From positions 32,001 through 96,000 of IMG/VR virus record IMGVR_UViG_3300028840_005911: DNA of 64,000 bases, one strand, 5' to 3'. The position numbers and the translations under genes were made by a program. The notes under the pieces were generated by a model. The model had not been told where the DNA came from. It saw nothing but the letters and a program-made list of their open reading frames with translations, and did not search any database. Below are positions 48,845 through 64,000 of the stretch, piece by piece. The stretch's first letter is position 1; every line of letters starts with the position of its first letter. The stretch is from a virus.

Positions 48845-48851
48845 AGCCTTC

Positions 48852-49469: not shown

Positions 49470-49497
49470 AATCCGGCGTGGTCTTCCGATATAAGAA
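49467..49497 (+). promoter_or_regulatory. Phage consensus promoter
   Basis: TAAAAT-N15-GATATAAGAA. Confidence 0.7.
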
Positions 49498-49574
49498 CTA
49501 TGAACAGAAGGGCAGTGCAGCAAAACCGGGAAGGTAGGGCGCTGCAAAAGGTTACGCACCCAAAGGAGGATCAA

Positions 49575-50393: not shown

Positions 50394-50395
50394 TC

Positions 50396-50474
50396 GGTGG
50401 ATAGCTTGAGAGTTTGTTGGTGGGTCGATTGGACTAGCGAACGGTTAGATGCTGGTTCGCTGGGAAGAGAGCCT
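50396..50474 (+). repeat. G-NNN period-4 tract (18/20 units, one 3-nt unit)
   Basis: ggtg gata gctt gaga gttt gttg gtgg gtc gatt ggac tagc gaac ggtt agat gctg gttc gctg ggaa gaga gcct. Confidence 0.75.
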
Positions 50475-50487
50475 TGTGCTCTCTTTT
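50465..50487. terminator. Bidirectional terminator between convergent genes
   Basis: AAGAGAGC-CTTGT-GCTCTCTTTT. Confidence 0.7.
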
Positions 50488-50490
50488 ACC

Positions 50491-50766
50491 TCAGAGCTGC
50501 GCCTTGAGGGTCGGTGAGGGCCGGAAGCCGACGGTCTTGGAGGCCTTGACCTTGATGATCTCGCCGGTCTGCGGATTGCGGCCCTTGCGGGCCTTGCGCT
50601 TGCGCAGATTGAAGACACCGAAGCCGGCGTAGCTGAAGCGGCCTTCCTTCTTCACCGTCTTGGTGATGGTGCTGAAGACGCTGTCCACGATATCGGTCGC
50701 GGCCTTGGTCGTCATCTCGTACCCCGCCGTCTTCTTGATCTGCTCGATGAATTCCTTCTTGGTCAT
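50491..50766 (-). CDS. hup: Histone-like DNA-binding protein HU
   Basis: MTKKE, GFGVF, RKARKGRNPQTGEII, VGFRPSPTLK. Confidence 0.93.
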   Translation of the reverse strand: MTKKEFIEQIKKTAGYEMTTKAATDIVDSVFSTITKTVKKEGRFSYAGFGVFNLRKRKARKGRNPQTGEIIKVKASKTVGFRPSPTLKAQL

Positions 50767-50862
50767 GTCTGAACTCCTACAAAAGGGTTAAAGAAAACAC
50801 AGGCAGAATAAGCATAGTAGAGACAATAGTCAACAACTTTCGCCAAAATACGGCCATTATTG

Positions 50863-50893
50863 GAAATTCTGGGTGACAGTTTCGGTACAAGAA
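50863..50893 (+). promoter_or_regulatory. Phage consensus promoter
   Basis: GAAATT-N15-GGTACAAGAA. Confidence 0.65.
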
Positions 50894-50942
50894 TACTGAG
50901 GAGGAAATCCGCATTTTAACCAGCCGGGACTGGGAGAAAACC

Positions 50943-51326
50943 ATGAAGAAAGGAGTAGTCAAGATCGTAGAGGCTAAGGAGAAGTTTCCTGGAAAGGTTC
51001 CCGCAGTCGTGTACGCCGCACTGCTGGAACACAAAACAATGGCGGAGAATTTTGACTGGGCCGCTTGGCTCTACAATCCTATTCTTGGCTCGAGGTTCTT
51101 GCTGGACTCTGACGTAAACCGGCAGAACATCCTAAGAAGAACTGAGTACAACCCGTCATTCCACAAGTGGGGATATGTAGACGGGTCATGCGTCATAGTA
51201 CTAGGCGACTCAGAAGACTACGTTCTCACGACACTCGATTCTCTGCTTCCGCATGTAACGGTGCAAACACTGGACATCTGCGAGGAGAGGATGCTCATGA
51301 AACATCTGATGCGGCCGGGAGGCTAG
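50943..51326 (+). CDS. Hypothetical protein
   Basis: GGGAG RBS; between promoter and terminator. Confidence 0.6.
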   Translation: MKKGVVKIVEAKEKFPGKVPAVVYAALLEHKTMAENFDWAAWLYNPILGSRFLLDSDVNRQNILRRTEYNPSFHKWGYVDGSCVIVLGDSEDYVLTTLDSLLPHVTVQTLDICEERMLMKHLMRPGG

Positions 51327-51327
51327 G

Positions 51328-51355
51328 AATAAAGGAGGCTCCGGCCTCCTTTATT
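51328..51355 (+). terminator. Hairpin terminator
   Basis: AATAAAGGAGGC-TCCG-GCCTCCTTTATT. Confidence 0.75.
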
Positions 51356-51360
51356 ACCTG

Positions 51361-51390
51361 TAAAATACTGGACTTTCTCAGGTATAAGAA
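51361..51390 (+). promoter_or_regulatory. Phage consensus promoter
   Basis: TAAAAT-N14-GGTATAAGAA. Confidence 0.8.
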
Positions 51391-51435
51391 AAATGTGAAG
51401 AGATCATCTTAACCACCACAAGGAGGAGGAATCAC

Positions 51436-52692
51436 ATGAACATCGATCTCAACATGTTCGAGAAGGACGAGAAGACGGGACTCTACATCATCGAGGACCA
51501 GGTAGTCCTCGGTATCATCCTGGTCTACGTCATCCAGAAGCTCGGACAGTGCAACGACAACCTGCTGCGGGATACCCTCCGTGACAAACTGGGCATCTAC
51601 GTACGCAAGTGGAAGACCGTCTTCCGCAACGCCCTCAACGCTCTCAAGAAGCTGGACCTCATCGCCATCAACCAGCTCCCCGGAGAGGGGGACGTACAGG
51701 AAGAGCACTACTCCCTGAAGAACGTGGAGTTCGCCTCCCCGCCGCATCTGGCCCACTTCAAGGACGTTCTTCCCAAACTGCTTGCAGACGGGACGTCCGC
51801 AGCTATCAAGGTGGCTTTCGACTCCGGGGAAGAAGCGGAGCCAGGGGAGACCACCAAGCCCAAGAGGGGAGCAAACATCAAAGAGAGCCACGTCTACTCA
51901 GTCCGGTTCGAGAGTGAGGAGAAGTTCCTTGCTGGTAGGTCAATCTGTCCGACCATGAGGGACGGCCTGGAGAAATCTCCGTACCAACCGAACATCGATG
52001 GCTATATCAAGCAGGAAGAAGAAGAGCCCAGGAAGACCAAGAAAAAGAAGGCGGCCGATAGGGCAGACGCTAAGATCGACCGCTTCTTCGAGCGAGCCAC
52101 TGACGGCGGGATCCTGATCCACGGTGGTATCACCAAGGGCATGTTCTGCTCTGCCATACCGCGCTTGTACGGCCTCGCCCCGGCAACCGCGAGGGACAAC
52201 GGCGGGTACCCGTCGATCATCGTCTACCCGAACAATCACGGTATCCAACTGACCACACTTCCGGTCCAGGCCTCCAACGGCAAGTCAGCCGCACCGCAAA
52301 CCTACGAGACAATCATGCCTGGAGAGGAGATCCTGCTCAGGTTCTGGGCCCCGACCAAAGGGTTCCTGGACGCGGACATCATCGTTGAGTATCTCGAGTT
52401 CATCGGCCTCTTCCCAAAACGCACCCTTTCGCCCGGTCGTGGCACCGAGACTGGGAAGATGAGGATGACTCACTTCGTTGACCATGGCCTTGTTCCGGAG
52501 ATATTCGAGAAGCGCAAGAAGAACAGGAAGAAGCTTCCCATAGATGCATACCTCGACTGGGAGTTCGAAAAGGAGACCGGGGTAACGCTCCAAAAAGTCG
52601 GCGGTGCCCCGAAGACTAAGAAGGCCCGCATGCGGGTCGACGGCAACAAGATGCTCCTCTTCAAGACGAAGGGAGACCAGGCTCAGGCGTAG
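51436..52692 (+). CDS. Winged-helix + stand-alone RAMP/Cas7-like protein (Vipr-like)
   Basis: VRFESEEKFLAG; FFERATDGGILIHGGITKGMFCSA; IIVYP...LPVQASNG...YETIMPGEEI; EYLEF...PGRGTETGKM match the motif order of phage solo Cas7-like proteins as I recall them. Confidence 0.65.
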   Translation: MNIDLNMFEKDEKTGLYIIEDQVVLGIILVYVIQKLGQCNDNLLRDTLRDKLGIYVRKWKTVFRNALNALKKLDLIAINQLPGEGDVQEEHYSLKNVEFASPPHLAHFKDVLPKLLADGTSAAIKVAFDSGEEAEPGETTKPKRGANIKESHVYSVRFESEEKFLAGRSICPTMRDGLEKSPYQPNIDGYIKQEEEEPRKTKKKKAADRADAKIDRFFERATDGGILIHGGITKGMFCSAIPRLYGLAPATARDNGGYPSIIVYPNNHGIQLTTLPVQASNGKSAAPQTYETIMPGEEILLRFWAPTKGFLDADIIVEYLEFIGLFPKRTLSPGRGTETGKMRMTHFVDHGLVPEIFEKRKKNRKKLPIDAYLDWEFEKETGVTLQKVGGAPKTKKARMRVDGNKMLLFKTKGDQAQA

Positions 52693-52713
52693 TTCCTCCC
52701 CCTGGGTGCGCCT

Positions 52714-52752
52714 GGAGAGAGGGTGGGTCGCGCATCACCCCACCCTCTCTTT
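52714..52752 (+). terminator. Hairpin terminator
   Basis: GAGAGGGTGGG...CCCACCCTCTC followed by TTT. Confidence 0.75.
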
Positions 52753-52757
52753 AGCCG

Positions 52758-52788
52758 TAAATTTGACGACCCCTTTTGGGTATAAGAA
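52758..52788 (+). promoter_or_regulatory. Phage consensus promoter
   Basis: TAAATT-N15-GGTATAAGAA. Confidence 0.8.
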
Positions 52789-52830
52789 TACTGGAGAAGG
52801 ACAACCTTATATCCATAGGAGGGGAAAGCC

Positions 52831-53193
52831 ATGGATCACGTCAGCAAGCACACCAAAGGAGTCATGAACTCAATCGCCAGGTTCGCTCTCAAGCACCAGG
52901 AGAGAAACGGAATCGAAACGAAGTGGGTCTCCAAGAGCAGGATCCACGTCGTGTTCGGGAAGGAGTTCGGGGTCGACCTGAACACCATCAACTGGACCGG
53001 TGAGATCTATAAGCTCAAGCGCCGCTACGGAAAGTCAATTCGAGAACGTCTCGAGTACATTGTCCCCGGGGCCGATCTCAAGTACGACTTCTACTACCAG
53101 CTGGCAAAGATGATCTGGAGAGATCGCTACAAGAGGAAATTGACGAAGACACCAGGGTCCTGTATCATCGACGATACGTCACACACTTCTTGA
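52831..53193 (+). CDS. Hypothetical basic protein
   Basis: AGGAGGGG RBS. Confidence 0.7.
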   Translation: MDHVSKHTKGVMNSIARFALKHQERNGIETKWVSKSRIHVVFGKEFGVDLNTINWTGEIYKLKRRYGKSIRERLEYIVPGADLKYDFYYQLAKMIWRDRYKRKLTKTPGSCIIDDTSHTS

Positions 53194-53318
53194 CCGGTTT
53201 ACAGCATCCCTGTACCGGTCTACCAAAAATGACAGGTTCCTCCCGAGGGCTTCGCTGGGAGGGTCATTGAACGTGGTGAATGGGGGTCGCCCTCGCCCCC
53301 TAGTAACCGGAGGTCCTC

Positions 53319-53570
53319 ATGTACCAGCTGAAGAAGCACGTGAACCAGACCGTCCGCAAATTTCTTATATCCAAAGGGGCCTATATGCACCCGGAGGCGA
53401 TAAAGAAGCTGAAGAAGTTATCTGCAGACAGGCCGTACAACTACATCTACCAGATCAAGAGAAGATACCGGAAGATAGTGAGGAAGGCTCGCAAGAAATA
53501 CCCGAACATCGTCCACGACTGGATGGCAATCTATTACGCCTACAGGCTAGGGAGAGGAAGATGGACATAG
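53319..53570 (+). CDS. Hypothetical basic protein
   Basis: GGAGG RBS. Confidence 0.65.
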   Translation: MYQLKKHVNQTVRKFLISKGAYMHPEAIKKLKKLSADRPYNYIYQIKRRYRKIVRKARKKYPNIVHDWMAIYYAYRLGRGRWT

Positions 53571-54076
53571 AGAAGAAATTCTATCTGACACAGAGGATAG
53601 AGAAGCAGTGGAATGCTCCTCGGGACGATAAGGAAGGCGTCGACGCTTATTTCGCCTTCGACTACATGGGATCTTCAGAGTTCGAGTGGGGAGCGCTCCC
53701 TAAGGCTCTGCGAGACATGCGCAAGGGCTGGAAGGAAGAAGAGCCAGTCATTGTGAGGATCAACGCATACATCCCCCTGGATGATATTGAAGAAAAAGAT
53801 AATGGGGTCACCTGTCATGTCTGGTTTGTAGGCAATAGAGAAGACCTCGAGGACGCTACTGATTTCTTCAACGACCAACTCACTGATAGGAAGATCCGAA
53901 TCCATGAGAGGACCTGCATGTCACAGGCCTACGGTATCCCTGAGGGGCCATATGACAAGGCATCAAGCTTCTACGACAGGCTGATAGGGTGGTGGGCTCT
54001 GAATGGTCTGATATGTCTCTTCCGGGACGAGGAGGACGCAAAAATCTGGAAAAGGGAGGTTCTCAATGGACAATAA
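53561..54076 (+). CDS. Hypothetical protein
   Basis: GAGG RBS before MDIEKK; FDYMGSSEFEWG. Confidence 0.7.
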   Translation: MDIEKKFYLTQRIEKQWNAPRDDKEGVDAYFAFDYMGSSEFEWGALPKALRDMRKGWKEEEPVIVRINAYIPLDDIEEKDNGVTCHVWFVGNREDLEDATDFFNDQLTDRKIRIHERTCMSQAYGIPEGPYDKASSFYDRLIGWWALNGLICLFRDEEDAKIWKREVLNGQ

Positions 54077-54105
54077 GAAACGTACTGCAAGAGCTGGAGC
54101 TTGCA

Positions 54106-54135
54106 TAAAATCTAGCTGTGAATACGGTATAAGGA
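54106..54135 (+). promoter_or_regulatory. Phage consensus promoter
   Basis: TAAAAT-N14-GGTATAAGGA. Confidence 0.8.
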
Positions 54136-54196
54136 TACTGTAGGAGATCGTTAGGTCTCCATGTTACAATCTCAGCTTCACAAGGAGGGAAATCCC

Positions 54197-54952
54197 ATGG
54201 GTAAGATGCACGAACTGCTGGCAGTCGAGTCAGACCGCGAGGCGGTCTTCAAGAAGGTCGTCACCGAGGCCGGCGATACGTTCCGTAAACGCTCCGACCA
54301 CTTCCTCGGGCACCACAAGACGCTCGAGATGAAGGAAGAGGGCAAGGAGATGGCAGAGGCCGCTGCCGAAGACCACAAGGCCATGGTCACGACTGTCGGC
54401 AAGAAGCTCGACTACGTCTCCAACCCGGTCGTCACATACCTGGACGCGGTCCTGCAGAAGGAATGCACCAACCAGGTGGCGAAAGCCGATCTCGTTCTTC
54501 CGGACGGCACCGTGCTCGGCAAAGACCTGCCGGCCACCTTCTTGCTAGGGCTCGAGTCCAAGCTCAAGTTCCTCCGTCAGATGTACGAGAACATCCCGAC
54601 CTTGTCCCCTGGGACAGAGTGGGTCGCAGATGATCAGATGGGCGAAGGGGTCTACAAGTCCAAGCATCTCGAGACCAAGGCCAAGACGGAGACGACTGTC
54701 GAACACAAGGTCATCGTCGAAGCCACCGAGCACCACCCGGCCCAGATCGGCGAGGCATCCATCACCGAGGTCGTCGGTGTCTTCAAGACCAAGCACTGGA
54801 GCGGGATGATCTCTCCTGCCCGGAAGTCGGAGCTCCTGGGACGGTTGGACGTACTCATGCAGGCCGCCAAGCAAGCAAGGATGAGGGCCAACTCAGCGGA
54901 CACCATCGACAGGAAGATCGGCAAGGAGCTGGTGGACTACATCAACGCATAG
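54197..54952 (+). CDS. Conserved helical protein (recalled as DUF7873-like, unverified)
   Basis: K.HELLAVE, LPATFLLGLE, IPTL, HPAQ, WSGMISP, AAKQARMRAN. Confidence 0.65.
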   Translation: MGKMHELLAVESDREAVFKKVVTEAGDTFRKRSDHFLGHHKTLEMKEEGKEMAEAAAEDHKAMVTTVGKKLDYVSNPVVTYLDAVLQKECTNQVAKADLVLPDGTVLGKDLPATFLLGLESKLKFLRQMYENIPTLSPGTEWVADDQMGEGVYKSKHLETKAKTETTVEHKVIVEATEHHPAQIGEASITEVVGVFKTKHWSGMISPARKSELLGRLDVLMQAAKQARMRANSADTIDRKIGKELVDYINA

Positions 54953-55111
54953 GAGAACAGAGGTTTGACAAGTGGGTCAGCATTGGTGTTCCTGAAGCGG
55001 AGTCCCGGTTTGACACCCGGAACAAGGCCCGCAGACAGGGGTACTGAGCTTCAGAGTGAGCGTCAGCTTATCGAACCCACAGCGTCAATAGCCGTAATAC
55101 AACCCTGATGA

Positions 55112-55244
55112 GGATCTTCTGGCATGAACCACAATCACCGTGGTCGCAGGTTCAAGTCCTGCCATCCCCTCCAACCTATGGGGATGTAGCTCAGTGGTAA
55201 GAGCGACGGGTCGTTGTTGTAACGGTTCTTGGGTAGATGATTCC
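55112..55244 (+). ncRNA. Circularly permuted tRNA-like RNA (YrlA/Y-RNA-like)
   Basis: T arm GCAGG-TTCAAGT-CCTGC, then CATCCCC-TCCA-ACCTAT-GGGGATG, then D arm GCTC-AGTGGTAA-GAGC, closed by a long imperfect stem. Confidence 0.7.
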
Positions 55245-55328
55245 AAGGGTGGCGGCGCTGGGTGACTGGGAGACGATGTGTATCTATGGAGATTTGGCAC
55301 GTCAATGTCTTCCAGTCACTCCATCATT

Positions 55329-55373
55329 AGGGCCGGGAGGCCGCAAATAGCCGGCCTCCCGGCCCTCTCTTTT
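55329..55373 (+). terminator. Hairpin terminator
   Basis: AGGGCCGGGAGGCCG...CGGCCTCCCGGCCCT followed by CTCTTTT. Confidence 0.75.
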
Positions 55374-55482
55374 GAGGAGATTTAATGGGCGATCCAATGT
55401 TCGGGTACATGGTAGGCTCACTGATCGTTATCGTGCTCGTGGTTGTGATCTTCTCCTGTACTCCAGATAGGAGGAGGAAACG

Positions 55483-55776
55483 ATGAGAGAACCAATAGAC
55501 TACGACGGATACATGTGGGATCGAGACCCAGAGGCCGTAGAGGAACACAAAGAGCTCGAGCCCGCACTGGAGGTACTCGACGCCTTCATCTCGGACTGGG
55601 TCGAGCCGTGCTACAATTTCCTGGACTTCCAACGAGAGGCTCTGGTAACAATCGAAGCCTACATCAAATTCCTCGAGGGCCCAAACATGGCAGAAGGCGA
55701 TCTGAAGGCACTCAGGGAGAGGTTCCGAAATGAGCGAGAAAGAAGCCAAGAAGAGAGAGCTCCTGAACAGGGCTGA
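55483..55776 (+). CDS. Hypothetical protein
   Basis: GGAGG RBS. Confidence 0.6.
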   Translation: MREPIDYDGYMWDRDPEAVEEHKELEPALEVLDAFISDWVEPCYNFLDFQREALVTIEAYIKFLEGPNMAEGDLKALRERFRNERERSQEERAPEQG

Positions 55777-55930
55777 GAATACCCTAACGGAGCTCATGGA
55801 TGTTGTCGAGAAGGACAGCAAGAAGATCCTCACGATGGATACCATCAACGGGGTCCGCAAGCTCCGGACATATCTCGTCGGCGGACATTACACGCCGTTT
55901 CTTGGCATAAAAGATCGAACAGGCCAGTAG
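55730..55930 (+). CDS. Hypothetical protein
   Basis: GAGG RBS; stop lies inside tRNA 5' end. Confidence 0.55.
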   Translation: MSEKEAKKRELLNRAENTLTELMDVVEKDSKKILTMDTINGVRKLRTYLVGGHYTPFLGIKDRTGQ

Positions 55931-56001
55931 CTCAATTGGTAGAGCACCCGCAATCTGAAACATGCGGGAGGTTTGGGGTTCAAGTCCTTGCTGGCCTACC
56001 A
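55921..56001 (+). tRNA. Atypical tRNA, possibly Phe(GAA), with enlarged anticodon arm
   Basis: AGGCCAG/CTGGCCT acceptor, ACCA end, D arm, TTCAAGT loop; 22-nt anticodon arm; three G-U pairs in T stem. Confidence 0.7.
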
Positions 56002-56133
56002 GTTCCGGGCCATAGTGGTCCGGTGAAGCTTCTAGGATGGCCCCTGGAGCTTCAAGGCCCTGGGCGCGGGGAAGGAAAAGGATTCCTCCTTTTGGGTGCT
56101 CCCCGCGCCCGGGCAATCTCTCAAGGAGCGCCG

Positions 56134-56394
56134 ATGCACAAATTTAAGTGTCCCCACTGTGGAGACGATTCCTATATCTGCCGCAACGAGACGGTGTACC
56201 TACAGACGCCGGTGAAACCAACAGACACCTCATGGACATACGACGAGGACAGGATGGCATTTGACGGGGCGATCCTGTGGGATACCTGCGGACGGTACGA
56301 TCTCGATGACCAGGAATTCAAGTGTGTGAACTGCCTGACCGACTTCGACTGGTCCATCATCGACGGGCCAACGAACGTCGTTCTACCTGACTAG
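56134..56394 (+). CDS. Zn-ribbon protein
   Basis: CPHCG...CVNC; AAGGAG RBS. Confidence 0.7.
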   Translation: MHKFKCPHCGDDSYICRNETVYLQTPVKPTDTSWTYDEDRMAFDGAILWDTCGRYDLDDQEFKCVNCLTDFDWSIIDGPTNVVLPD

Positions 56395-56402
56395 GAACAA
56401 CA

Positions 56403-56642
56403 ATGAAATGCCAAAGATGTGAAAGCGAGAGGATCCTGAAATTCTCCGGGAAGACCTCTGACCTCTTTTCCTGCTACTACATGGGCAAAGAGCACCAAGG
56501 GTATGTGCCGAAAGGCATCGGTATCAACGATAAGTACAGGGACTATCTACAAGGACGTCTGTGCATGGAGTGCGGACAAGTCCAAGGAGAATTCCCCGTA
56601 CCCGGGCCAGACATCGAAGACGATGAAGAAGAGGAGTTGTAA
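56403..56642 (+). CDS. Zn-ribbon protein
   Basis: CQRC...CMECG. Confidence 0.7.
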   Translation: MKCQRCESERILKFSGKTSDLFSCYYMGKEHQGYVPKGIGINDKYRDYLQGRLCMECGQVQGEFPVPGPDIEDDEEEEL

Positions 56643-56643
56643 C

Positions 56644-57027
56644 ATGTTCGAAGAGCTGACCTTCAAGAAAGAGGAAGTCCTCAATAGGCTGAAGATCAAT
56701 CGCGAGGAGCATCTGAAGATCGTACGCGAAGCCCAGGAGGGTTACCGGGAGCAGTACGAGAAGCTCCTGGTCAAGACCCTCGATGATCTCCGGTCCGGGA
56801 AAGAGGTTCCTAACCACGTAGGTCTGACAGTCCCGTCGAACCACGTGGATGATTATGACCGTGCTATCGAGATGCTCGAGATGTGCACCGAGAAAGAGAT
56901 CATCCTCGACGAGAACCAGTTCCAGGAGCTCATGCGTAACAAGTGGAACTGGATGAGCGGGTTCCTGGTCAGCAACGCTGGTTACAGCGCCACTGCCCAC
57001 AACATCACCACGACAGCCGACGTGTAA
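56644..57027 (+). CDS. Hypothetical protein
   Basis: GAGGAG RBS before MFEELT. Confidence 0.7.
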   Translation: MFEELTFKKEEVLNRLKINREEHLKIVREAQEGYREQYEKLLVKTLDDLRSGKEVPNHVGLTVPSNHVDDYDRAIEMLEMCTEKEIILDENQFQELMRNKWNWMSGFLVSNAGYSATAHNITTTADV

Positions 57028-57054
57028 AATACTGAAATCATTCGGTTATAAGAA
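57025..57054 (+). promoter_or_regulatory. Phage consensus promoter
   Basis: TAAAAT-N14-GTTATAAGAA. Confidence 0.75.
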
Positions 57055-57175
57055 CTTCGAGGAGAAGTTTACACACCTGGTCCCCTCACTCCCCTCCGAG
57101 GGGACCAAACTCCTACACCTTGGGCCTGCCGGCAGGTATCCCTCCCCCTCCTGCCGGCAGGCCCCTTCAAAAACT

Positions 57176-57235
57176 GGATGTTAGGTGGAACTGCCGTGCG
57201 CATGTCCGGGAGTCCGTAGGAATGGGTAGGTGAGG
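57176..57235 (+). repeat. G-NNN period-4 tract (13/15)
   Basis: ggat gtta ggtg gaac tgcc gtgc gcat gtcc ggga gtcc gtag gaat gggt aggt gagg. Confidence 0.7.
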
Positions 57236-57236
57236 T

Positions 57237-57265
57237 AAGAAGGGGAGCCCTGTTCCTCTTCTTTT
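57237..57265 (+). terminator. Hairpin terminator
   Basis: AAGAAGGGGAGC-CCT-GTTCCTCTTCTTTT. Confidence 0.7.
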
Positions 57266-57271
57266 AGCCCA

Positions 57272-57302
57272 TGAATTCTAAGGTCTTCTTGCGGTATAAG
57301 GA
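57272..57302 (+). promoter_or_regulatory. Phage consensus promoter
   Basis: TGAATT-N15-GGTATAAGGA. Confidence 0.7.
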
Positions 57303-57338
57303 TACTGAGGAAGAACCTTAGCACCACAGGAGGAAGCC

Positions 57339-57683
57339 ATGAAATATCTTGAGAGAGCGGCGATAAGCCTGCAATCTGTTCTACACAAAGGGAGCACCGA
57401 TCTCGAGAAGATCGGCATCTTGCTGGCCAACATCCATACCATCATCGATCTGTGGATCCCCATCGGCCGGGCTGTTCAGATCATGGGTCGGGAGCGTTCG
57501 GCCCCGGTTCTGCGCTCGAGGGCCGAGAAGCTCATCAGGGATATCCGTAGAGAGGACGAGGATGCCGTCAGAGAGGATATCTCGGTCATAGAGGACATAG
57601 TATACCAGTACACCGGAAAACGTCCCGTAGGGGGCAAGGAGTACGCTAGCAGGGAGACTATCCAGTTTGTCGACGCCCCCTGA
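57339..57683 (+). CDS. Hypothetical protein
   Basis: AGGAGG RBS. Confidence 0.7.
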   Translation: MKYLERAAISLQSVLHKGSTDLEKIGILLANIHTIIDLWIPIGRAVQIMGRERSAPVLRSRAEKLIRDIRREDEDAVREDISVIEDIVYQYTGKRPVGGKEYASRETIQFVDAP

Positions 57684-57813
57684 GTCTGATACACTGGCCT
57701 CGGCCCTGCCGGATAGTTCATCCATGTGAGCTCCTACCAAGTCCAGCAGGGTCATTTATTTTGGAGAAGGAAATGGACAGACCAACATACAGGAGCAGAA
57801 GAAGAGTGGACTG

Positions 57814-58032
57814 GTGGCTATCACCACCGGTCTGTTCATCGACAGGGCATCTTCACGAAAACAGATAGAGGAGGCATGGCCCAGCCTCTGCAAGGATCTC
57901 GGGCTGGTTGATGACAAAACCGGGACGAACACGTACACCATTCAGGGGTTCGATCTCTACAAGTGGGTTGAGGAGAAGCACCAAGAGAAGTTCAACTCTG
58001 AGCCGGACCCTGTACCAAAACCCCATTCTTGA
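57814..58032 (+). CDS. Hypothetical protein (start uncertain)
   Basis: GTG start; strong-RBS ATG at 57773 is out of frame. Confidence 0.45.
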   Translation: MAITTGLFIDRASSRKQIEEAWPSLCKDLGLVDDKTGTNTYTIQGFDLYKWVEEKHQEKFNSEPDPVPKPHS

Positions 58033-58160
58033 CATGCGCGATCACCTCTTTGCAGTGATCACAGACAATGCACACATATCCGTCAATGACCTGAACGGAG
58101 AGGATATGGAACATGTGTTTCTCGAGATCCATTTCTAGATTGTAGCACAGGAGCAAAGTT

Positions 58161-58409
58161 ATGGGAGATTTGTCAGACGACCTCCGCGAGATGGGTATAG
58201 CCGAGGAAGGTATACCCCAGACGGAGATGATCTGTGAAATATTCGCACCGGTGATTGACGAGCTCATCGAACATCGCCTCGACGCGGCTACTACTGAAAA
58301 AGAGAAGAGGAATGCTCCCTACGATGTGAGGGACTACCTGTTCCGTCTGATAACCGCGATAGCCACTCAGAAAAAATACATCAGGAGGGCAAACGAATGG
58401 AAAGAGTAA
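58161..58409 (+). CDS. Hypothetical protein
   Basis: AGGAG RBS. Confidence 0.65.
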   Translation: MGDLSDDLREMGIAEEGIPQTEMICEIFAPVIDELIEHRLDAATTEKEKRNAPYDVRDYLFRLITAIATQKKYIRRANEWKE

Positions 58410-58639
58410 GCGCGTGGGTCATCGTCTGCGGGACTGGCGCCTTATACCCTATAGGGTCAGGTGGAGGGAAGGCCGCCTACATCCACAAAGAGGTCGCCGA
58501 GGATGTAATGATGGCCATCGCTGATCACGATAAGGCCTACGTCAAAGGTCGCGGAGGTCTTCACCTCGAAGAAATAACTGCAGAGGCCGGCCTGTTCAAG
58601 CAGCTAGGCCTCAATCTTGTCACGCAGGAGAAAGAGTAA
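58397..58639 (+). CDS. Hypothetical protein
   Basis: GGAGG RBS. Confidence 0.6.
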   Translation: MERVSAWVIVCGTGALYPIGSGGGKAAYIHKEVAEDVMMAIADHDKAYVKGRGGLHLEEITAEAGLFKQLGLNLVTQEKE

Positions 58640-58881
58640 TGGCCTACGTAGTCGGACTTCTCACAGATGAGGAGATGGAGATTCTCGAAGAGCGCGGATG
58701 GGATTTCGAGGAACCTCCCGCAGAGCTCAAGCTGGGGAGGTGTCCCCCGGGAAAGGTCCAGAAGATGGTCTGGGTCGACAGTGATATGTTCGAGATCATC
58801 GGCCCCTGGGAAGACAGGTCGTTCAGTGACGGTCCTCCCTACGATGCCGCAACTGCTACGGGGATGTACGACCGGTACTAA
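58639..58881 (+). CDS. Hypothetical acidic protein
   Basis: TAATG overlap. Confidence 0.6.
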   Translation: MAYVVGLLTDEEMEILEERGWDFEEPPAELKLGRCPPGKVQKMVWVDSDMFEIIGPWEDRSFSDGPPYDAATATGMYDRY

Positions 58882-58900
58882 ACACGGCCGGTTGAATGGC

Positions 58901-59040
58901 GATAGATTGAATGAGTTACTGATAGTTTGCGAGGGAGTTGGGAAGGACGGAGTCTGGAAAGCAGTGAGGAAAGGGCGGAAGGTTGTTCGATCTCACGAGG
59001 GATAGGCAGCCAGTGGGCCTGTGGGGAGGAGCGAACGGAA
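58901..59040 (+). repeat. G-NNN period-4 tract (31/35)
   Basis: gata gatt gaat gagt tact gata gttt gcga ggga gttg ggaa ggac ... gagc gaac ggaa. Confidence 0.85.
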
Positions 59041-59066
59041 AAGAGACTGATCTGGTCTCTTTTCTT
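59039..59066 (+). terminator. Hairpin terminator
   Basis: AAAAGAGAC-TGATCTG-GTCTCTTTT. Confidence 0.75.
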
Positions 59067-59074
59067 ACTTATGA

Positions 59075-59104
59075 AAAAATAACGCGATCCTTTGGGTATA
59101 AGAA
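59075..59104 (+). promoter_or_regulatory. Phage consensus promoter
   Basis: AAAAAT-N14-GGTATAAGAA. Confidence 0.8.
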
Positions 59105-59146
59105 AAGTGAAGAGGAATCGATAACTTTCACCCTTAGGAGGAAGCC

Positions 59147-59854
59147 ATGGGTAACGGTCGTCAAGGATTCGGACCAATAAATGGTGCGAAGGTGGTCAAG
59201 AAAGAAGCAGAGAATATGTGCGAATTTGGGTGGGTGGTGGATTCGATATGGTACAAGATAGAAAATGAAAAACTCAACCTGGCCATGAAAGGGCAATTCC
59301 CACAGCATCCATACTATTCCAAAAAGACGCAGTGCCTGCGAAAATCGACACGAACCAAAACAGGTCCTGTCAGGCCGGAAGATGTTGGCAAAAAGTGGCT
59401 GTTGAGGAAACTTGACGGGACACGTACAACCCTCTCGATCGTCGATGAGAAACCAGAAGGGTACAAACTCTTGTGCTCTCCAAAGAGGAAGAAACAGCTG
59501 GACCGCCTCAAACCGGCACCGGTCATCACCCAAGGGATGTTGGAAAACAAAGGCGCCACGGCAGCGATGAGCGCAGAAAAGGTCTGTCGTCTCTATCGGA
59601 CAATGGCGAAAGAGGAGTTCATCTTCGATAACCCTCCCACTATCGAATCCCCGGTCCCGGATTCGATGATCACCATTATCGCATTGAATGGTGGTGAGAT
59701 GCAGTCCTTTCAGGTTCCTGCGACTCAGATAGCCATCATGAAGGATGGTGTCGTAGGTGTCCTCGATGAGGAGTTCGAGTTCCAGAAATCGAACCTCCCA
59801 ACCTCGATGACAAATCTGCTCCGCGCAGCCGCAGAAAATGTCAGCTCGACATAG
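59147..59854 (+). CDS. Hypothetical protein
   Basis: AGGAGG RBS. Confidence 0.65.
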   Translation: MGNGRQGFGPINGAKVVKKEAENMCEFGWVVDSIWYKIENEKLNLAMKGQFPQHPYYSKKTQCLRKSTRTKTGPVRPEDVGKKWLLRKLDGTRTTLSIVDEKPEGYKLLCSPKRKKQLDRLKPAPVITQGMLENKGATAAMSAEKVCRLYRTMAKEEFIFDNPPTIESPVPDSMITIIALNGGEMQSFQVPATQIAIMKDGVVGVLDEEFEFQKSNLPTSMTNLLRAAAENVSST

Positions 59855-60554
59855 GCTGACTCCGAAAGAGGCCCTTGGTGAAGTACAAGAAATAGATCTG
59901 TACAGAACTCCGCTCGAGAAAAGAAAGTTCCCAGTTCCAAGCTGGGTACCAACGACGAATACGAACCTGGAGTTCCGGTATGAGCTCAAGGACTTCGTGT
60001 ACGACGTAATCTTGAGCGCCGCCAAGGACATCGGAGTTCGAGGGAACATGATCAGTCTGGCGGCCGGTAGGGGGCCTCAAATCTACTGCCGGCTCGCCAG
60101 CGTGATCAAAGGGTCGTTTCTGTGCTGCGAGTGGGACTGGGACAGATATCGAGAGCTGGTAAATCTGTACCGCCTTCTGGACAGTAAAGAGGCGGACAAC
60201 ATCTCAATCAGTCCTCACGACATCTTCACCGAGATTGGATGGGCGGCTGATGCTGGGGTCTCGTACTCAATCCTGGACTTCGATCTGATGACCTCTCTAT
60301 CCGTGAACAATACAGTCAACTCTTTGGTGGAGGCCATAGAACGCGGAGCATCTGACAAATCTGTGGTTGCTATCTGGAGTCTACACGGAAGGAAAATCAC
60401 CAAGAGCGAGAGCAGCAAAAGATATCGGGAGGTGGGCGGACTGCTAGCCAGAAAGTTCAACGTCGAGAAGGTCACCAAACTGGTGTACCCGAGTAAGTCT
60501 CTAAAGTCTCACTATGTCATCAGATCTAGAATTTACAGGCTGGAGAGGAAATGA
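59838..60554 (+). CDS. Methyltransferase-fold protein (possible TcmP-like partner of DUF5131)
   Basis: ISLAAGRGP, LCCEWD, HDIF, ILDFD in Rossmann order; adjacent to DUF5131. Confidence 0.55.
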   Translation: MSARHRLTPKEALGEVQEIDLYRTPLEKRKFPVPSWVPTTNTNLEFRYELKDFVYDVILSAAKDIGVRGNMISLAAGRGPQIYCRLASVIKGSFLCCEWDWDRYRELVNLYRLLDSKEADNISISPHDIFTEIGWAADAGVSYSILDFDLMTSLSVNNTVNSLVEAIERGASDKSVVAIWSLHGRKITKSESSKRYREVGGLLARKFNVEKVTKLVYPSKSLKSHYVIRSRIYRLERK

Positions 60555-61261
60555 GTCGCACCAAAATACCATTTGCCGATGAAGTGTGGAACCCAATCAC
60601 CGGTTGTACAAAGATCAGCCCAGGATGCCAACGTTGCTATGCGGAGAACATGGCCCATCGTATCGCCGGGCGATGGCCCCAAGCTGGCTACAGCAAGGGT
60701 GACCCGTTCGGAATCACCTACCACTGGGATAAGCTGCAGGAGCCGTTCAAGTGGAAGACGGAAAGGAGGGTATTCGTCTGTTCGATGGGCGATTTCTTTC
60801 ATCCGCACATACCGGACAGCTACCGAGACGTTGTTCTGTCAATAGTACAGGCTCGGCCCCACATCACCTTCATCTTCATGACCAAAAGAGCAGAGGAGGC
60901 ATACAGGTATTTCCGGAAGGGGACCCCATACAATGTGTGGATAGGAGCATCCGTAGAAAACCAGGTGATGGTCGAAGAAAGGACAGAGTGGATAATCCGG
61001 ATACCGAGCCTGGTCAGATTCGTGAATGTCGAACCCATACTCGGCCCTGTTGACTTGGCGAGGTACCTACCGCACCTCAGTTGGGTCATTGCCGGAACGG
61101 AGACCGGAAAACACAAACGTGAGGCGGACACGAACTGGCTACGAGCTACCCGCGACCAATGTAGGTCTTGGGACGTGCCATTCTTCTTGATGCAGGCGGG
61201 GGAGAACAACCATTTGGACGGTAAGCTGCACAGACAGTTACCGATAGGAGAAATATCATGA
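60551..61261 (+). CDS. DUF5131 family (Gp37/Gp68, radical-SAM-like)
   Basis: WNPITGCTKISPGCQRCYA, FVCSMGDFFH, TKR, WIGASVENQ, EPILG, WVIAGTETG. Confidence 0.9.
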   Translation: MSRTKIPFADEVWNPITGCTKISPGCQRCYAENMAHRIAGRWPQAGYSKGDPFGITYHWDKLQEPFKWKTERRVFVCSMGDFFHPHIPDSYRDVVLSIVQARPHITFIFMTKRAEEAYRYFRKGTPYNVWIGASVENQVMVEERTEWIIRIPSLVRFVNVEPILGPVDLARYLPHLSWVIAGTETGKHKREADTNWLRATRDQCRSWDVPFFLMQAGENNHLDGKLHRQLPIGEIS

Positions 61262-61611
61262 GCAAAGAGCTATACAACCAGCTATTGAAAATGATGTTGT
61301 TGGCCGATGTCCGGAACCCCATGTCTGCGACAGATCAGGTGGACTGGATCATAGAGATACTGGACGCGCTCTTGAACAGAACCAATGTGCAGTATATGGA
61401 TTTGGAAGACGGCCTTACGTTCTTTGAAGACAGGTCAACATACCATTTGACAACAATGTGCATCAACGAGGTGTACAGAGTGTACGTCTTGGAGGAGTTT
61501 GGTGGCGAGTTCGCCCTTATCACACCCAAACTCCTTCCGGACCATATCAAAGAAAAGATCCTGGATGTTCTGAAGGACTTCATTTCGAAGTGCGCCTCAG
61601 AAGGGACTTGA
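61258..61611 (+). CDS. Hypothetical protein
   Basis: ATGA overlap, AGGAG RBS. Confidence 0.6.
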   Translation: MSKELYNQLLKMMLLADVRNPMSATDQVDWIIEILDALLNRTNVQYMDLEDGLTFFEDRSTYHLTTMCINEVYRVYVLEEFGGEFALITPKLLPDHIKEKILDVLKDFISKCASEGT

Positions 61612-61701
61612 GTGACGGTTCGTACGGTCGGCTGTATGGTCGGGAGCGCGTCTGGATAGTGTGGGGTTTGTGGGACGGCCCGCAGGGATGTCGGAACGGT
61701 G
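61610..61701 (+). repeat. G-NNN period-4 tract (21/23)
   Basis: gagt gacg gttc gtac ggtc ggct gtat ggtc ggga gcgc gtct ggat agtg tggg gttt gtgg gacg gccc gcag ggat gtcg gaac ggtg. Confidence 0.85.
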
Positions 61702-61706
61702 TGGAC

Positions 61707-61735
61707 AAGAAAGAGGGCCTTCTGTCTTCTTTCTT
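61707..61735 (+). terminator. Hairpin terminator
   Basis: AAGAAAGAGGGC-CTTCT-GTCTTCTTTCTT. Confidence 0.7.
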
Positions 61736-61746
61736 ACATATTTTCG

Positions 61747-61777
61747 GAAAATTTGAAGGTGTTTTTCGGTATAAGAA
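61747..61777 (+). promoter_or_regulatory. Phage consensus promoter
   Basis: GAAAAT-N15-GGTATAAGAA. Confidence 0.8.
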
Positions 61778-61779
61778 TT

Positions 61780-62117
61780 GTGAGGAAAAGGGACGCTTTT
61801 TCCTTGTGTCGAGAAGGTCACCGGTAGGCGCCCACCGACACCTGAATATCCGCTACCGGGTGAAACTTGAGAAGTTAGAGTGCGCATTCTCAAGTTTCAT
61901 GGAATGGAGACGTGTTCGTGACGTCCCTGCACTCATGGTTTGGGAAACCAGGGGATGGTGATGGGATTAGTCCCCGGCTGGTAACAGCGCAGCTGTCGGG
62001 AAGGCGCCGCCAGGGATGGCACCCTGGCCGTTCGGGAGCTAGATCAGTTTTGGGCTATGAAGCAGCTGCCCCGAATCTGATCCGGTACCAAGAAGAGGGT
62101 ATCCCGCCTCTCTTCTT
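61780..62117 (+). ncRNA. Candidate structured ncRNA (about 340 nt)
   Basis: Promoter-to-terminator unit with several hairpins including 13-bp TGAAACTTGAGAA/TTCTCAAGTTTCA; no RBS-supported ORF. Confidence 0.55.
62090..62117 (+). terminator. Hairpin terminator
   Basis: AAGAAGAGGGT-ATCCC-GCCTCTCTTCTT. Confidence 0.65.
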
Positions 62118-62127
62118 ACCTATTTAG

Positions 62128-62158
62128 TAAAATCCAACACCTCTGTTGGGTATAAGAA
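62128..62158 (+). promoter_or_regulatory. Consensus promoter with palindromic operator in spacer
   Basis: TAAAAT-N15-GGTATAAGAA; CCAACAC-CT-CTGTTGG at 62134-62149. Confidence 0.8.
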
Positions 62159-62204
62159 TAGTGACAGGAGAATGCAGTCTTTTCAACACCCAAAGGAGGA
62201 GACC

Positions 62205-62393
62205 ATGTTCATCAAGGTTCTGACCATGCTGCCGACCAGGTGGCAGATCGTAGTCTTGAAGTGGATGCTCAGGACTGCGGAGAAGATCTCCGATGCTCAG
62301 CGGAGCGACGGGGAGTATCATCTGTCAACAGAACTCGATAGTGCGCGGGTCAGCTTCACAAGGAAGATCCGCGAGCTCGAGGAAAGGAGATAA
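62205..62393 (+). CDS. Small hypothetical protein
   Basis: AAGGAGG RBS before MFIKV. Confidence 0.65.
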   Translation: MFIKVLTMLPTRWQIVVLKWMLRTAEKISDAQRSDGEYHLSTELDSARVSFTRKIRELEERR

Positions 62394-62396
62394 GTC

Positions 62397-62540
62397 ATGG
62401 GACTGTTTCTGTTCGTAGTCGCGGTCGGCGCGGCGATATCGTTTCTCGGGGTTGTGATCGCCTTCGCGATGAACCCGCAGGGCCAAATCGAGGAGTTCAA
62501 GAAAGGCTATCGCGGCGAGTACACCAGAAAGGATGACTAA
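62397..62540 (+). CDS. Small membrane protein (47 aa), not in ORF track
   Basis: AAGGAG RBS; MGLFLFVVAVGAAISFLGVVIAFAMNPQG... Confidence 0.6.
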   Translation: MGLFLFVVAVGAAISFLGVVIAFAMNPQGQIEEFKKGYRGEYTRKDD

Positions 62541-62541
62541 T

Positions 62542-62557
62542 CCAACAGGTCTGTTGG
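62542..62557. promoter_or_regulatory. Palindrome CCAACAG-GT-CTGTTGG
   Basis: Perfect 7-bp arms; one of four copies. Confidence 0.6.
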
Positions 62558-62562
62558 ACACT

Positions 62563-62678
62563 GATTGGCTGGGAGTACGAGGGGTATATGGGATGGTAGT
62601 GAGATCTGACGTGTGAGCGGATGTCGTCTGGCTCGTACGGAGGGTTGGTCGGGAACGCGGACGTGGGCGAGAATGAAT
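62563..62678 (+). repeat. G-NNN period-4 tract (25/29)
   Basis: gatt ggct ggga gtac gagg ggta tatg ggat ggta gtga gatc ... gtgg gcga gaat gaat. Confidence 0.85.
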
Positions 62679-62698
62679 TCTGAGCCGAAGGAGTTCAT

Positions 62699-62724
62699 GG
62701 AGGAGGGCTATATGCCCTCTTCTT
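62699..62724 (+). terminator. Hairpin terminator
   Basis: GGAGGAGGGC-TATAT-GCCCTCTTCTT. Confidence 0.7.
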
Positions 62725-62745
62725 ACATGTATACTATATATAAGT

Positions 62746-62791
62746 CCAACAGGGCTGTTGTAAATTACTTACCGCGATTCTGGTATAAGAG
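62746..62791 (+). promoter_or_regulatory. Operator CCAACAG-GG-CTGTTGT abutting consensus promoter
   Basis: Palindrome 62746-62761; TAAATT-N15-GGTATAAGAG. Confidence 0.75.
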
Positions 62792-62912
62792 ATCTATGGG
62801 AGCGTGTTTCGCTCCTTCGCATTGAGCTGGTCCTGGAGTAGGTAACGGGTAACCGTGTGGCGCGCGACATGTCTACTCCAGGACCGCAAGACATTATCCC
62901 GGCCTTCGGCCG

Positions 62913-63160
62913 GTTTGATTGTGTTGTGGGTGGAATGTCGGGAGTATCGGACGCTTGAACGAATGTGGGAGAGTAAATCAGACAGGGGAGCAGGTTGATC
63001 GAAGAGAGGCAAGGGCGGTCGCCGGTATGAGTGTTCGCGGGTCTGGTAGCGAGAGGGTACGTTTGTCCGTGGTGCGGAATCATGGGGCGTTTGTCAAAAG
63101 GAAGGTACGAGCGTGAGTGGGAACATGCGTCTGCACGGTGGCCCGAGCGAAAGCTCGAGA
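62913..63160 (+). repeat. G-NNN period-4 tract (53/62, unbroken phase)
   Basis: gttt gatt gtgt tgtg ggtg gaat gtcg ggag ... gccc gagc gaaa gctc gaga. Confidence 0.9.
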
Positions 63161-63185
63161 AGAGGATACCCCCTATCCTCTTCTT
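63158..63185 (+). terminator. Hairpin terminator
   Basis: AGAAGAGGATA-CCCCC-TATCCTCTTCTT. Confidence 0.75.
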
Positions 63186-63190
63186 ACCTG

Positions 63191-63221
63191 TAAAATACAA
63201 CAGCACTGTTGGGTATAAGTA
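63191..63221 (+). promoter_or_regulatory. Consensus promoter with palindromic operator in spacer
   Basis: TAAAAT-N15-GGTATAAGTA; ACAACAG-CA-CTGTTGG at 63197-63212. Confidence 0.8.
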
Positions 63222-63957: not shown

Positions 63958-64000
63958 GGGCTGAACAACGCGGAGCTGGCCGCTGAATCCAGCAATGATT

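What the first reader, a model, noticed from the sequence alone, without database searches (positions are those of the whole stretch)
50396..63160. Candidate new RNA-guided system: six dispersed G-NNN (period-4) tracts plus a solo RAMP/Cas7-like protein
Seen: six intergenic plus-strand tracts (50396, 57176, 58901, 61610, 62563, 62913) have G at every 4th base (161/184 units by hand; roughly a quarter of the other positions in the longest tract are G). The NNN triplets are non-repetitive, so repeat and CRISPR finders would miss them. Each tract starts just after a stop codon or hairpin and ends at a terminator-like hairpin, so each would be transcribed at an RNA 3' end; two sit in stand-alone promoter-driven non-coding units. 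A RAMP/Cas7-like gene lies among them. Knowledge: RAMP/Cas7 filaments bind RNA with a fixed per-subunit register, and recently reported phage VIPR systems (my recollection; verify) pair a Cas7-related protein with GGY-NN pentamer guides whose variable bases specify a gapped DNA target. Inference: this is a variant with a 1+3 register, one G gripped per subunit and three bases read out.
Basis: partly seen in the sequence, partly recalled or inferred. Interest (0 to 1): 0.96.

Follow-up and report, generated by a model that had tools for sequence, protein, structure and literature searches.

The report
Phage RAMP protein with every-fourth-G RNAs
A 192-kb uncultured phage carries seven non-coding tracts with a G at every fourth base plus a lone Cas7-like protein, and distant relatives of that protein in other phage contigs sit next to the same kind of tract, so this looks like a 4-base-register cousin of the newly described VIPR guide-RNA systems, though no targets were found.

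Summary
The window has six plus-strand tracts with G at every fourth base (163/190 units; about 29% G at other positions). A seventh starts at 63997. None lies on the minus strand or elsewhere in the 192-kb genome.

The gene at 51436-52692 has no Pfam or PHROG match. Its AlphaFold model (pLDDT 85.8) is a PadR-like winged helix fused to a Cas7/Csm3-type RAMP domain (Foldseek probability 1.0; VIA Z up to 11.7).

The main new evidence is co-occurrence. Homologues at 27-37% identity in unrelated metagenomic phage contigs are flanked, on the gene's strand, by period-4 G tracts. One locus (L004) has a 1-kb array of tracts alternating with a conserved hairpin repeat. Five of 12 loci show this clearly, three weakly, four not at all.

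All published VIPR guide RNAs have period 5, and a survey of 376 million intergenic regions reported no period-4 class. The protein shows no sequence similarity to type II Vipr.

I read this as a VIPR-like RAMP-RNA system with a 4-nt register. The protein-tract link is likely (about 0.85). Guide function is unproven (about 0.5), because I found no targets in the phage genome or in IMG/VR. Another agent of this scan, studying the seventh tract, reported no evidence of guide function.

The parts
51436..52692 (+). Gene for a 418-aa protein (P0001). Residues ~12-126 form a PadR-like winged helix. Residues ~149-360 form a Cas7/Csm3-type RAMP domain with a Gly-rich loop (S332-P-x-R-G...G340). The C-terminus is a Lys-rich disordered tail. 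The gene has its own GGTATAAG promoter at 51381 and a Shine-Dalgarno sequence.
   Evidence: No Pfam or PHROG hit. AF2 model pLDDT 85.8. Foldseek top hits are Csm3/Cas7, probability 1.0, E 1.7e-6. VIA Z 11.7 to Cmr and 10.2 to Csm3; PadR/Pex Z 8.9. 88 family representatives. Nearly invariant S332, P333, R335, G336, G340.
50396..50471 (+). Tract T1. It has 18 G-NNN units in two phases, starts 3 nt after the stop of the sigma-like gene 49500-50393, and ends at hairpin ~50465-50489.
57176..57247 (+). Tract T2. It has 14 units (12 G), follows two hairpins downstream of gene 56503-57027, and ends at hairpin ~57237-57265. Promoter at 57293.
58901..59051 (+). Tract T3. It has 35 units (31 G), lies after gene 58639-58881, and ends at hairpin 59037-59065. 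Promoter at 59095.
61610..61701 (+). Tract T4. It has 23 units (21 G), starts at the stop of gene 61258-61611, and ends at hairpin 61707-61735. Promoter at 61768.
62563..62707 (+). Tract T5. It has 36 units (29 G), lies after gene 62397-62540 and the palindrome at 62543-62556, and ends at hairpin ~62700-62724. Promoter at 62782.
62782..63185 (+). Stand-alone RNA unit. It runs from promoter GGTATAAG (62782) through a structured leader (13-bp stem, then a GGCC-TTC-GGCC hairpin at 62899-62913) to tract T6 (62909-63168; 64 units in one phase, 54 G) and terminator hairpin 63157-63185.
63997..64000 (+). Start of tract T7. It runs to window coordinate 64187 (genome 95997-96187), with 46 units (43 G) in two phases, downstream of gene 63264-63773.

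Best explanation
The tracts are the RNA partners of the winged-helix-RAMP protein encoded at 51436-52692.

Shown: the protein has a Cas7-type RAMP fold. Period-4 G tracts co-occur with divergent members of its family, on the gene's strand, either dispersed in 3' untranslated regions or as tract-hairpin arrays directly after the gene.

Inferred: the tracts are transcribed from the phage's early GGTATAAG promoters as the 3' ends of early transcripts or as dedicated RNAs, each capped by a terminator hairpin. RAMP protomers then polymerise along them in a fixed 4-nt register, each gripping one phased G, as Vipr grips GGY and Cas7 flips every sixth base.

More speculative: as in VIPR, the exposed variable bases direct the filament to complementary nucleic acid outside the phage's own genome, in a competing mobile element or the host. 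These bases are most likely unit positions 2-3, with position 4 behaving like a wobble or skip base. The fused winged helix would supply the DNA contact that separate Vap proteins supply in some VIPR types.

My estimate for the protein-tract link is about 0.85, and for RNA-guided targeting about 0.5. The stated confidence refers to the whole chain.
For: Fold: (viral RAMP hits of 194-252 aa). A few family members give weak Csm3 HMM hits and there is a weak Csm5 profile hit.

Co-occurrence by locus:
- L004/L005 (37% identity): a ~1-kb array at 3151-4106 begins 14 nt after the stop codon. It has 6-8 tracts separated by five copies of a ~48-nt hairpin (-31 to -46 kcal/mol, z -5.6 to -7.4, with compensatory changes).
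- L026 (27%): tracts lie on both flanks of the gene plus one more.
- L009/L010 (29%): one tract directly after the gene and four more intergenic.
- L006-8 (30%): tracts after and upstream of the gene.
- L027, L001 and L011 show weaker phasing.

Controls: the HMM finds no tract in 50 kb of phage SUSP1 and one 55-nt call in 79 kb of unrelated viral contigs.

Strand: the tracts are strictly on the transcribed strand.

Positional composition is the same in the phage and in L004: positions 2-3 are C-poor and A-rich, and position 4 is background-like.

Paralogous L004 tracts at 3335 and 3575 have identical positions 2-3 over 7 units (14/14). Over 9 units, 5 of the 7 changes are at position 4, 2 are at position 1 and none at positions 2-3 (p about 0.004).

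No self-target was found, as reported for VIPR. No neighbouring gene is conserved across loci, which fits a self-contained protein.
Against: No target was found under any rule, in the phage genome or in IMG/VR.

Four of 12 homologue loci (L024, L029, L032, L033) show no phased tract.

Tract lengths in the phage (14-65 units) far exceed the 9-16 repeats of vrRNAs, and no processing sites are evident.

Most tracts in the phage are 3' UTRs of protein-coding early operons, up to 11 kb from the gene. That would also suit an RNA-stability or regulatory role.

The 3' hairpins are generic terminators, not a dedicated handle.

The wobble-like signal rests on one tract pair that partly overlaps the semi-conserved repeat flank.

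There is no sequence similarity to type II Vipr.

A 4-nt footprint for a 418-aa protomer is untested.

Nothing here shows transcription or binding.
Confidence: 0.5

Rival explanations
1. The RAMP protein coats the G-NNN tracts, but the RNA is not a guide. The filament would protect or mark the 3' ends of early transcripts, for example by blocking 3'-5' exonucleases or Rho, timing mRNA decay, or titrating the protein as an autoregulatory sink. Only the phased G would matter.
For: In the phage, five of the six tracts in the window, and also the seventh, lie in 3' UTRs directly before ordinary terminators. Lengths are irregular at 14-65 units. No targets were found. The tracts are G-rich and C-poor, the opposite of a Rho loading site.
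Against: L004 and L011 have dedicated non-coding arrays with hairpin or short repeats after the gene rather than mRNA tails. One phage tract is a stand-alone RNA. Positions 2-3 and position 4 differ consistently in composition across loci, and positions 2-3 are conserved in a paralogous pair while position 4 drifts, which implies that the N bases carry information. The fused winged helix suggests DNA contact.
Confidence: 0.27
2. The tracts act at the DNA or transcription level independently of the RAMP protein, for example as R-loop-promoting G-phased non-template strands, pause signals for the phage polymerase, or binding sites for another factor. On this view the co-occurrence with the RAMP gene is shared ancestry of related phages.
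For: The tracts cluster in the early region together with phage-specific promoters, terminators and CAACA-N4-TGTTG palindromes. The phage encodes its own transcription factors.
Against: Apart from the RAMP gene, the loci share no detectable protein with the window region and range from 50 to 64% GC, yet the tracts follow the gene. In three loci the tract begins within tens of bases of its stop codon. RAMP proteins are periodic RNA binders by fold.
Confidence: 0.08
3. The phasing is a compositional or chance artefact.
For: Block shuffles that keep the G-richness still give 0-2 short HMM calls.
Against: In-phase G is 86-88% against 29% out of phase over about 250 units. For one tract p is about 4e-12. 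There are no minus-strand tracts. The signal recurs in independent loci.
Confidence: 0.01

Closest known systems
VIPR systems (Vipr RAMP protein plus vrRNA; bioRxiv 10.64898/2026.04.26.720920 and 10.64898/2026.04.26.720927)
   Same: Both are phage-encoded and have a lone RAMP-fold protein with no other cas genes. Both have non-coding RNAs made of very short tandem units with conserved G and hypervariable other bases, followed by a 3' hairpin or tail. In both, arrays lie next to the gene or on both flanks, and there are no self-targets. I confirmed the SUSP1 reference locus by eye in KT454805.
   Different: The period here is 4, not 5, with one conserved G instead of GGY; all seven VIPR types and their NNNGG, YNNNG and NNNNG variants have period 5. 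The protein is 418 aa with an N-terminal winged helix, against about 190 aa for Vipr. It has no profile similarity to type II Vipr. No vap partner gene is conserved. Tracts are much longer (up to 65 units) and in this phage are dispersed as 3' UTRs over 14 kb. Targets and a targeting rule are unknown.
Type III CRISPR Cas7 backbone proteins (Csm3/Cmr4)
   Same: These are the best structural matches to residues 149-360 (Foldseek E 1.7e-6; VIA Z 9-11.7). They also form periodic filaments on RNA with one base flipped per protomer.
   Different: They use a 6-nt register and CRISPR repeat-spacer arrays, and they need Cas10, Cas6 and other partners. None of those features is present in any of the loci.
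TRAP-type periodic RNA-binding sites (Bacillus trp leader (G/U)AG repeats)
   Same: The RNA has a short conserved element repeated at a fixed spacing with variable spacers, read by an oligomeric protein.
   Different: TRAP sites are 9-11 triplets with 2-3-nt spacers in 5' leaders, bound by an 11-mer ring of a different fold. Here there are up to 65 units, a single conserved G and a RAMP partner.

Membership tests
VIPR | Stand-alone RAMP-fold protein (RRM core, Gly-rich loop, thumb) outside a CRISPR-cas locus | tested here: met
   The AF2 model matches Csm3/Cmr4. A nearly invariant SPxRG...G loop lies before the last strand and a long beta-hairpin spans 270-293. No cas genes are among the neighbours.
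VIPR | Protein belongs to the Vipr clade by sequence (PSI-BLAST from X1U2U4, or phylogeny) | tested here: inconclusive
   hhalign of the family profile A1 against a type II Vipr profile A3 gave probability 0.5%. tblastn of P0001 against the 50,697 phage records gave no match. Sequences of types I and III-VII were not available to test.
VIPR | vrRNA built of pentanucleotide repeats (GGY/NN or other 5-nt variants) | tested here: not met
   The period is 4 in the phage and in L004, L006, L009 and L026. No period-5 G signal appears in these tracts.
VIPR | Repeat tract followed by a conserved structured 3' tail | tested here: inconclusive
   L004 tracts are each followed by a conserved, covarying hairpin. 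In the phage, however, the 3' hairpin is the generic early terminator, which is also present without tracts.
VIPR | RNA genes flank the protein gene | tested here: met
   Tracts are directly adjacent in L004, L026, L009 and L006. In the window the nearest tract is 965 nt upstream and the others are 4.5-11 kb downstream.
VIPR | Gapped target rule (NN plus one skipped base) with natural targets in competing elements | tested here: inconclusive
   Ten rules tested against the phage's own genome scored no better than shuffles. Three rules for one L004 tract pair against IMG/VR gave 0-2 hits, at chance level. The host and competitor genomes are unknown.
VIPR | RNA co-purifies with the protein and forms a one-protomer-per-repeat filament | not testable with these tools
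   This needs pull-down plus RNA sequencing, and cryo-EM.
CRISPR-Cas type III | CRISPR repeat-spacer array plus Cas10 and other Cas subunits | tested here: not met
   No such array or genes occur in the window region or in the 12 loci. The L004 array has about 48-nt hairpin repeats, but its 'spacers' are phased G-NNN tracts of 50-130 nt.
TRAP-like attenuation sites | 9-11 (G/U)AG triplets spaced 2-3 nt apart in a 5' leader that controls a downstream terminator | tested here: not met
   A single G recurs with period 4 over up to 65 units, positioned in 3' UTRs or in dedicated RNAs.

The most novel reading that the evidence does not exclude
A second, sequence-unrelated lineage of phage RAMP proteins, fused to a winged helix, uses guide RNAs with a 4-nt register. 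One G per unit would be gripped, two bases read, and one wobble-like base skipped or tolerated. The guides would be encoded either as hairpin-separated arrays or as the 3' tails of the phage's own early mRNAs. This would show that the register of noncontiguous RNA-guided recognition is evolvable, and would add a new programmable code.
Probability: 0.4. Interest if true: 0.9.

Novelty: new variant of a known kind. Interest (0 to 1): 0.8.

Why it matters
VIPR was described only in 2026, and every reported example, across seven types and 99 clusters in an independent survey, has a 5-nt repeat. A RAMP family with a 4-nt repeat, a single conserved G and a fused DNA-binding domain would show that the protomer footprint and the read-out code are not fixed. 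It would widen the set of RAMP-RNA systems that predate or parallel CRISPR, and could give a second programmable gapped code.

The arrangement in this phage is also unusual: guide-like tracts ride on the 3' ends of early mRNAs instead of sitting in a dedicated array. This offers a testable route by which such RNAs could arise.

The family is almost absent from named sequence records. Of the contigs fetched, all but one MAG contig (NCBI assembly GCA_041643195.1) came from ENA, JGI or Logan metagenome assemblies. That may explain why PSI-BLAST-based VIPR surveys did not report it.

Tried and rejected
1. 'G plus sense codon' idea. In-frame stop triplets are depleted in the NNN frame: 5 against 14 expected, p 0.001, in the phage, and 6 against 13 in the other loci. 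However, the depletion follows from general TA avoidance (TAT and TTA are also low), and the decoded peptides are about 5% Trp. This is not evidence that the tracts copy coding sequence.

2. Self-targeting. Ten decoding rules on both strands scored no better than unit shuffles.

3. IMG/VR exact-pattern scans for the conserved core of L004 tracts A and B. I tried NN plus skip (20 and 18 specified bases), NNN contiguous, and collinear period 4. They gave 0, 2, 0 and 0 hits. The two hits are at chance level, and the better one lies antisense to the likely gene.

4. Cross-locus sharing of tract content. Only the L004 internal pair exceeds shuffles.

5. Higher-order periods of 8 or 12 and regular spacing of the non-G units. 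None was found.

6. Rfam. No family matches the tracts or the L004 and L011 repeats.

7. Relatives in IMG/VR or GTDB genomes by peptide patterns. None was found. The L004 repeat motif in IMG/VR gave only single chance matches.

8. megablast of the region and tblastn of the protein against cultured phages gave no match.

9. Near-identical contig pairs (L004/L005, L006-8, L009/L010) are too similar to show tract hypervariability.

10. Host identification failed; a RecA-like protein gave only distant hits.


Full report
**Observation**

No C runs appear, so there are no minus-strand tracts. An HMM with four phased states calls seven tracts in the whole 192,446-bp genome. All seven lie between genome 82.4 and 96.2 kb (window 50396-64187), all on the plus strand, and none lies on the minus strand.

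The in-phase position is G in 86-88% of about 250 units, and the other three positions are about 29% G. The longest tract holds one phase for 64 units (54 G), with p about 4e-12. Shuffling inside 100-nt blocks, which keeps the G-rich, C-poor composition, yields 0-2 short calls against 7 observed.

The variable part uses 58 of 64 triplets. Unit positions 2 and 3 are C-poor (14%) and position 4 matches the genome background.

Each tract runs into a hairpin with a purine 5' arm, followed by TTAC or TTAGCC and, 25-40 nt later, GGTATAAG. That promoter-like octamer occurs 18 times in the genome; 11 plus-strand copies cluster at window 48.4-63.2 kb. Operons without tracts have the same hairpins, so these are the phage's ordinary early terminators and not a dedicated RNA handle.

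Only the tract at 62913 sits in a stand-alone promoter-to-terminator unit. The other stand-alone unit (61790-62125) has no phased tract.

**The protein**

The 418-aa product of 51436-52692 has no Pfam or PHROG match and no tblastn match in 50,697 phage records. An exhaustive HMMER search found 88 cluster representatives.

An AlphaFold model built on 64 of them has mean pLDDT 85.8. Residues 149-360 match type III Cas7 proteins:
- Foldseek against the PDB gives Csm3 at probability 1.0 and E 1.7e-6, with more than 100 CRISPR backbone chains at E < 1e-3.
- An all-against-all structural search gives Z 11.7 (Cmr-beta), 10.2 (Csm3) and 9.4 (Csm3 crystal structure).
- In the viral structure library the top hits are 194-252-aa viral proteins, one of them named as RAMP superfamily.

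Residues 12-126 are a PadR-type winged helix (Z about 9; profile hits to PadR chains at E 0.0025). This domain also gives weak matches to the winged helices of Csa3 and of retron II-A effectors.

The nearly invariant S332-P-x-R-G...G340 segment, between the second long helix and the last strand, has the position of a RAMP Gly-rich loop. That assignment, and the reading of the 270-293 hairpin as a thumb, are inferences from the model.

**Link between protein and tracts**

This is the main new evidence. I fetched contigs for 11 other family members, at 26-37% identity by tblastn, from ENA, JGI, Logan and one NCBI MAG. Together with the phage itself these make the 12 loci counted here.

- **L004/L005** (64% GC). 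The gene ends at 3137 and a non-coding array runs from 3151 to 4106. It has six to eight period-4 G tracts separated by five copies of a ~48-nt hairpin that folds at -31 to -46 kcal/mol and keeps pairing through compensatory changes.
- **L026.** Tracts lie immediately upstream and downstream of the gene, and a third lies 3 kb away.
- **L009/L010.** A tract starts at the stop codon and four more occupy intergenic gaps over the next 7 kb, the same dispersed layout as in the window.
- **L006-8.** Tracts lie after and upstream of the gene.
- **L027, L001/2 and L011.** These have long non-coding stretches after the gene with weaker phasing. L011 is punctuated by a GGCCGTGATGGTG repeat every 100-160 nt.
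- **L024, L029, L032 and L033.** No phased tract is seen.
- **L003** is too short (1.5 kb) to judge and is not counted among the 12.

All tracts are on the gene's strand. Apart from the RAMP gene, no protein of the window region is shared with these loci. Controls gave no tract in 50 kb of phage SUSP1 and one 55-nt call in 79 kb of unrelated viral contigs. I could not run a formal odds ratio on all 88 members.

**Comparison with VIPR**

Two 2026 preprints describe VIPR: a roughly 190-aa phage RAMP (Vipr) that polymerises one protomer per repeat on vrRNAs of 9-16 YNNGG units followed by a 3' tail. Vipr sequesters GGY and uses NN to read DNA with one skipped base. The methods list variant repeats NNNGG, YNNNG and NNNNG, and the supplementary legend calls the motif pentanucleotide across all seven types.

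A later survey of 376 million intergenic regions found periodic arrays at 60-79, 18 and 5 nt, with minor classes at 10, 8 and 7 nt, and no period 4.

I located the SUSP1 reference locus in KT454805. It has a 195-aa Vipr, a 146-aa partner and GGYNN runs on both flanks. I built a 37-sequence type II Vipr profile from it. Profile-profile comparison with the present family gave no relationship (probability 0.5%).

The present system therefore works like VIPR in its visible anatomy. It fails the defining 5-nt feature, and its membership of the Vipr clade could not be shown.

**Guide function**

The evidence for guide function is indirect. The positional composition is the same in the phage (55% GC) and in L004 (64% GC): positions 2-3 are A-rich and C-poor, and position 4 is background-like. 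In the SUSP1 vrRNAs the NN bases also looked C-poor by eye; I did not tally this.

Two L004 tracts (starting at 3335 and 3575) are paralogous. Over seven units positions 2-3 are identical (14/14). Over nine units five changes fall at position 4, two at position 1 and none at positions 2-3, which has probability about 0.004 if changes were spread evenly. This suggests that positions 2-3 carry information and position 4 is wobble-like. It is one pair, and its 3' end overlaps the semi-conserved flank of the hairpin repeat.

Target searches failed:
- Ten rules against the phage's own genome gave nothing above shuffles. This mirrors the absence of self-targets reported for VIPR.
- Four exact-pattern scans of IMG/VR with the conserved A/B core gave only chance-level hits.
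- The host is unknown.

An apparent depletion of in-frame stop triplets is explained by TA avoidance.

**Verdict**

The tracts are real and are specifically associated with a new winged-helix-RAMP family. The most likely mechanism is a RAMP filament assembled in a 4-nt register on these RNAs. Whether the filament is a programmable guide complex, which is my leading reading, or a non-guide RNA coat on early transcripts remains open.

An earlier agent of this scan, looking only at the seventh tract, found no evidence of guide function (e1-5772300). The homologue loci examined here add evidence for a protein partner but do not settle targeting.

Noticed in passing
window 62135-62148, 62543-62556, 62747-62760, 63198-63211 (and 64238 just past the window): The palindrome CAACA-N4-TGTTG occurs four times within 1.1 kb, where 0.03 copies are expected; the whole genome has only 8. 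The copies lie just upstream of GGTATAAG promoters or at the start of tract T5. They look like operators for a dimeric DNA-binding protein, possibly the winged helix of the RAMP protein.
   Followed up: partly
window 55122-55235 and 55921-55998: A permissive Rfam scan finds a tRNA-like element (50.8 bits, not called by ARAGORN) and a YrlA/Y-RNA-like match (37 bits, below the family threshold of 69) in the same early region.
   Followed up: no
window 61790-62125: A stand-alone promoter-to-terminator unit with no credible ORF and no phased tract. The predicted fold is -139.5 kcal/mol (z -3.4), so it is possibly another structured RNA.
   Followed up: partly
L011:2695-4211: A 1.5-kb non-coding stretch lies after a RAMP homologue. 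It is punctuated about every 100-160 nt by GGCCGTGATGGTG, with only weak G phasing between copies. This may be a different array style in the same family.
   Followed up: partly
window 48423-63212: Eleven plus-strand GGTATAAG sites, each 25-40 nt after a purine-arm hairpin ending in TTAC or TTAGCC, define the phage's early promoter-terminator grammar. They do not match the sigma-70 consensus. The related contig L001 uses the same grammar.
   Followed up: partly
window 49500-50393 and 50491-50766: A protein combining an HTH_3 domain with sigma-70 region 4 precedes tract T1. A convergent HU-family gene ends at the T1 hairpin, which may therefore terminate transcription in both directions.
   Followed up: no
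P0001 residues 5-118 and homologues: The N-terminal winged helix gives weak HMM matches to the winged helices of Csa3 and of retron type II-A (St85-family) effectors: 13 of 64 members, best E 2.7e-5.
   Followed up: partly
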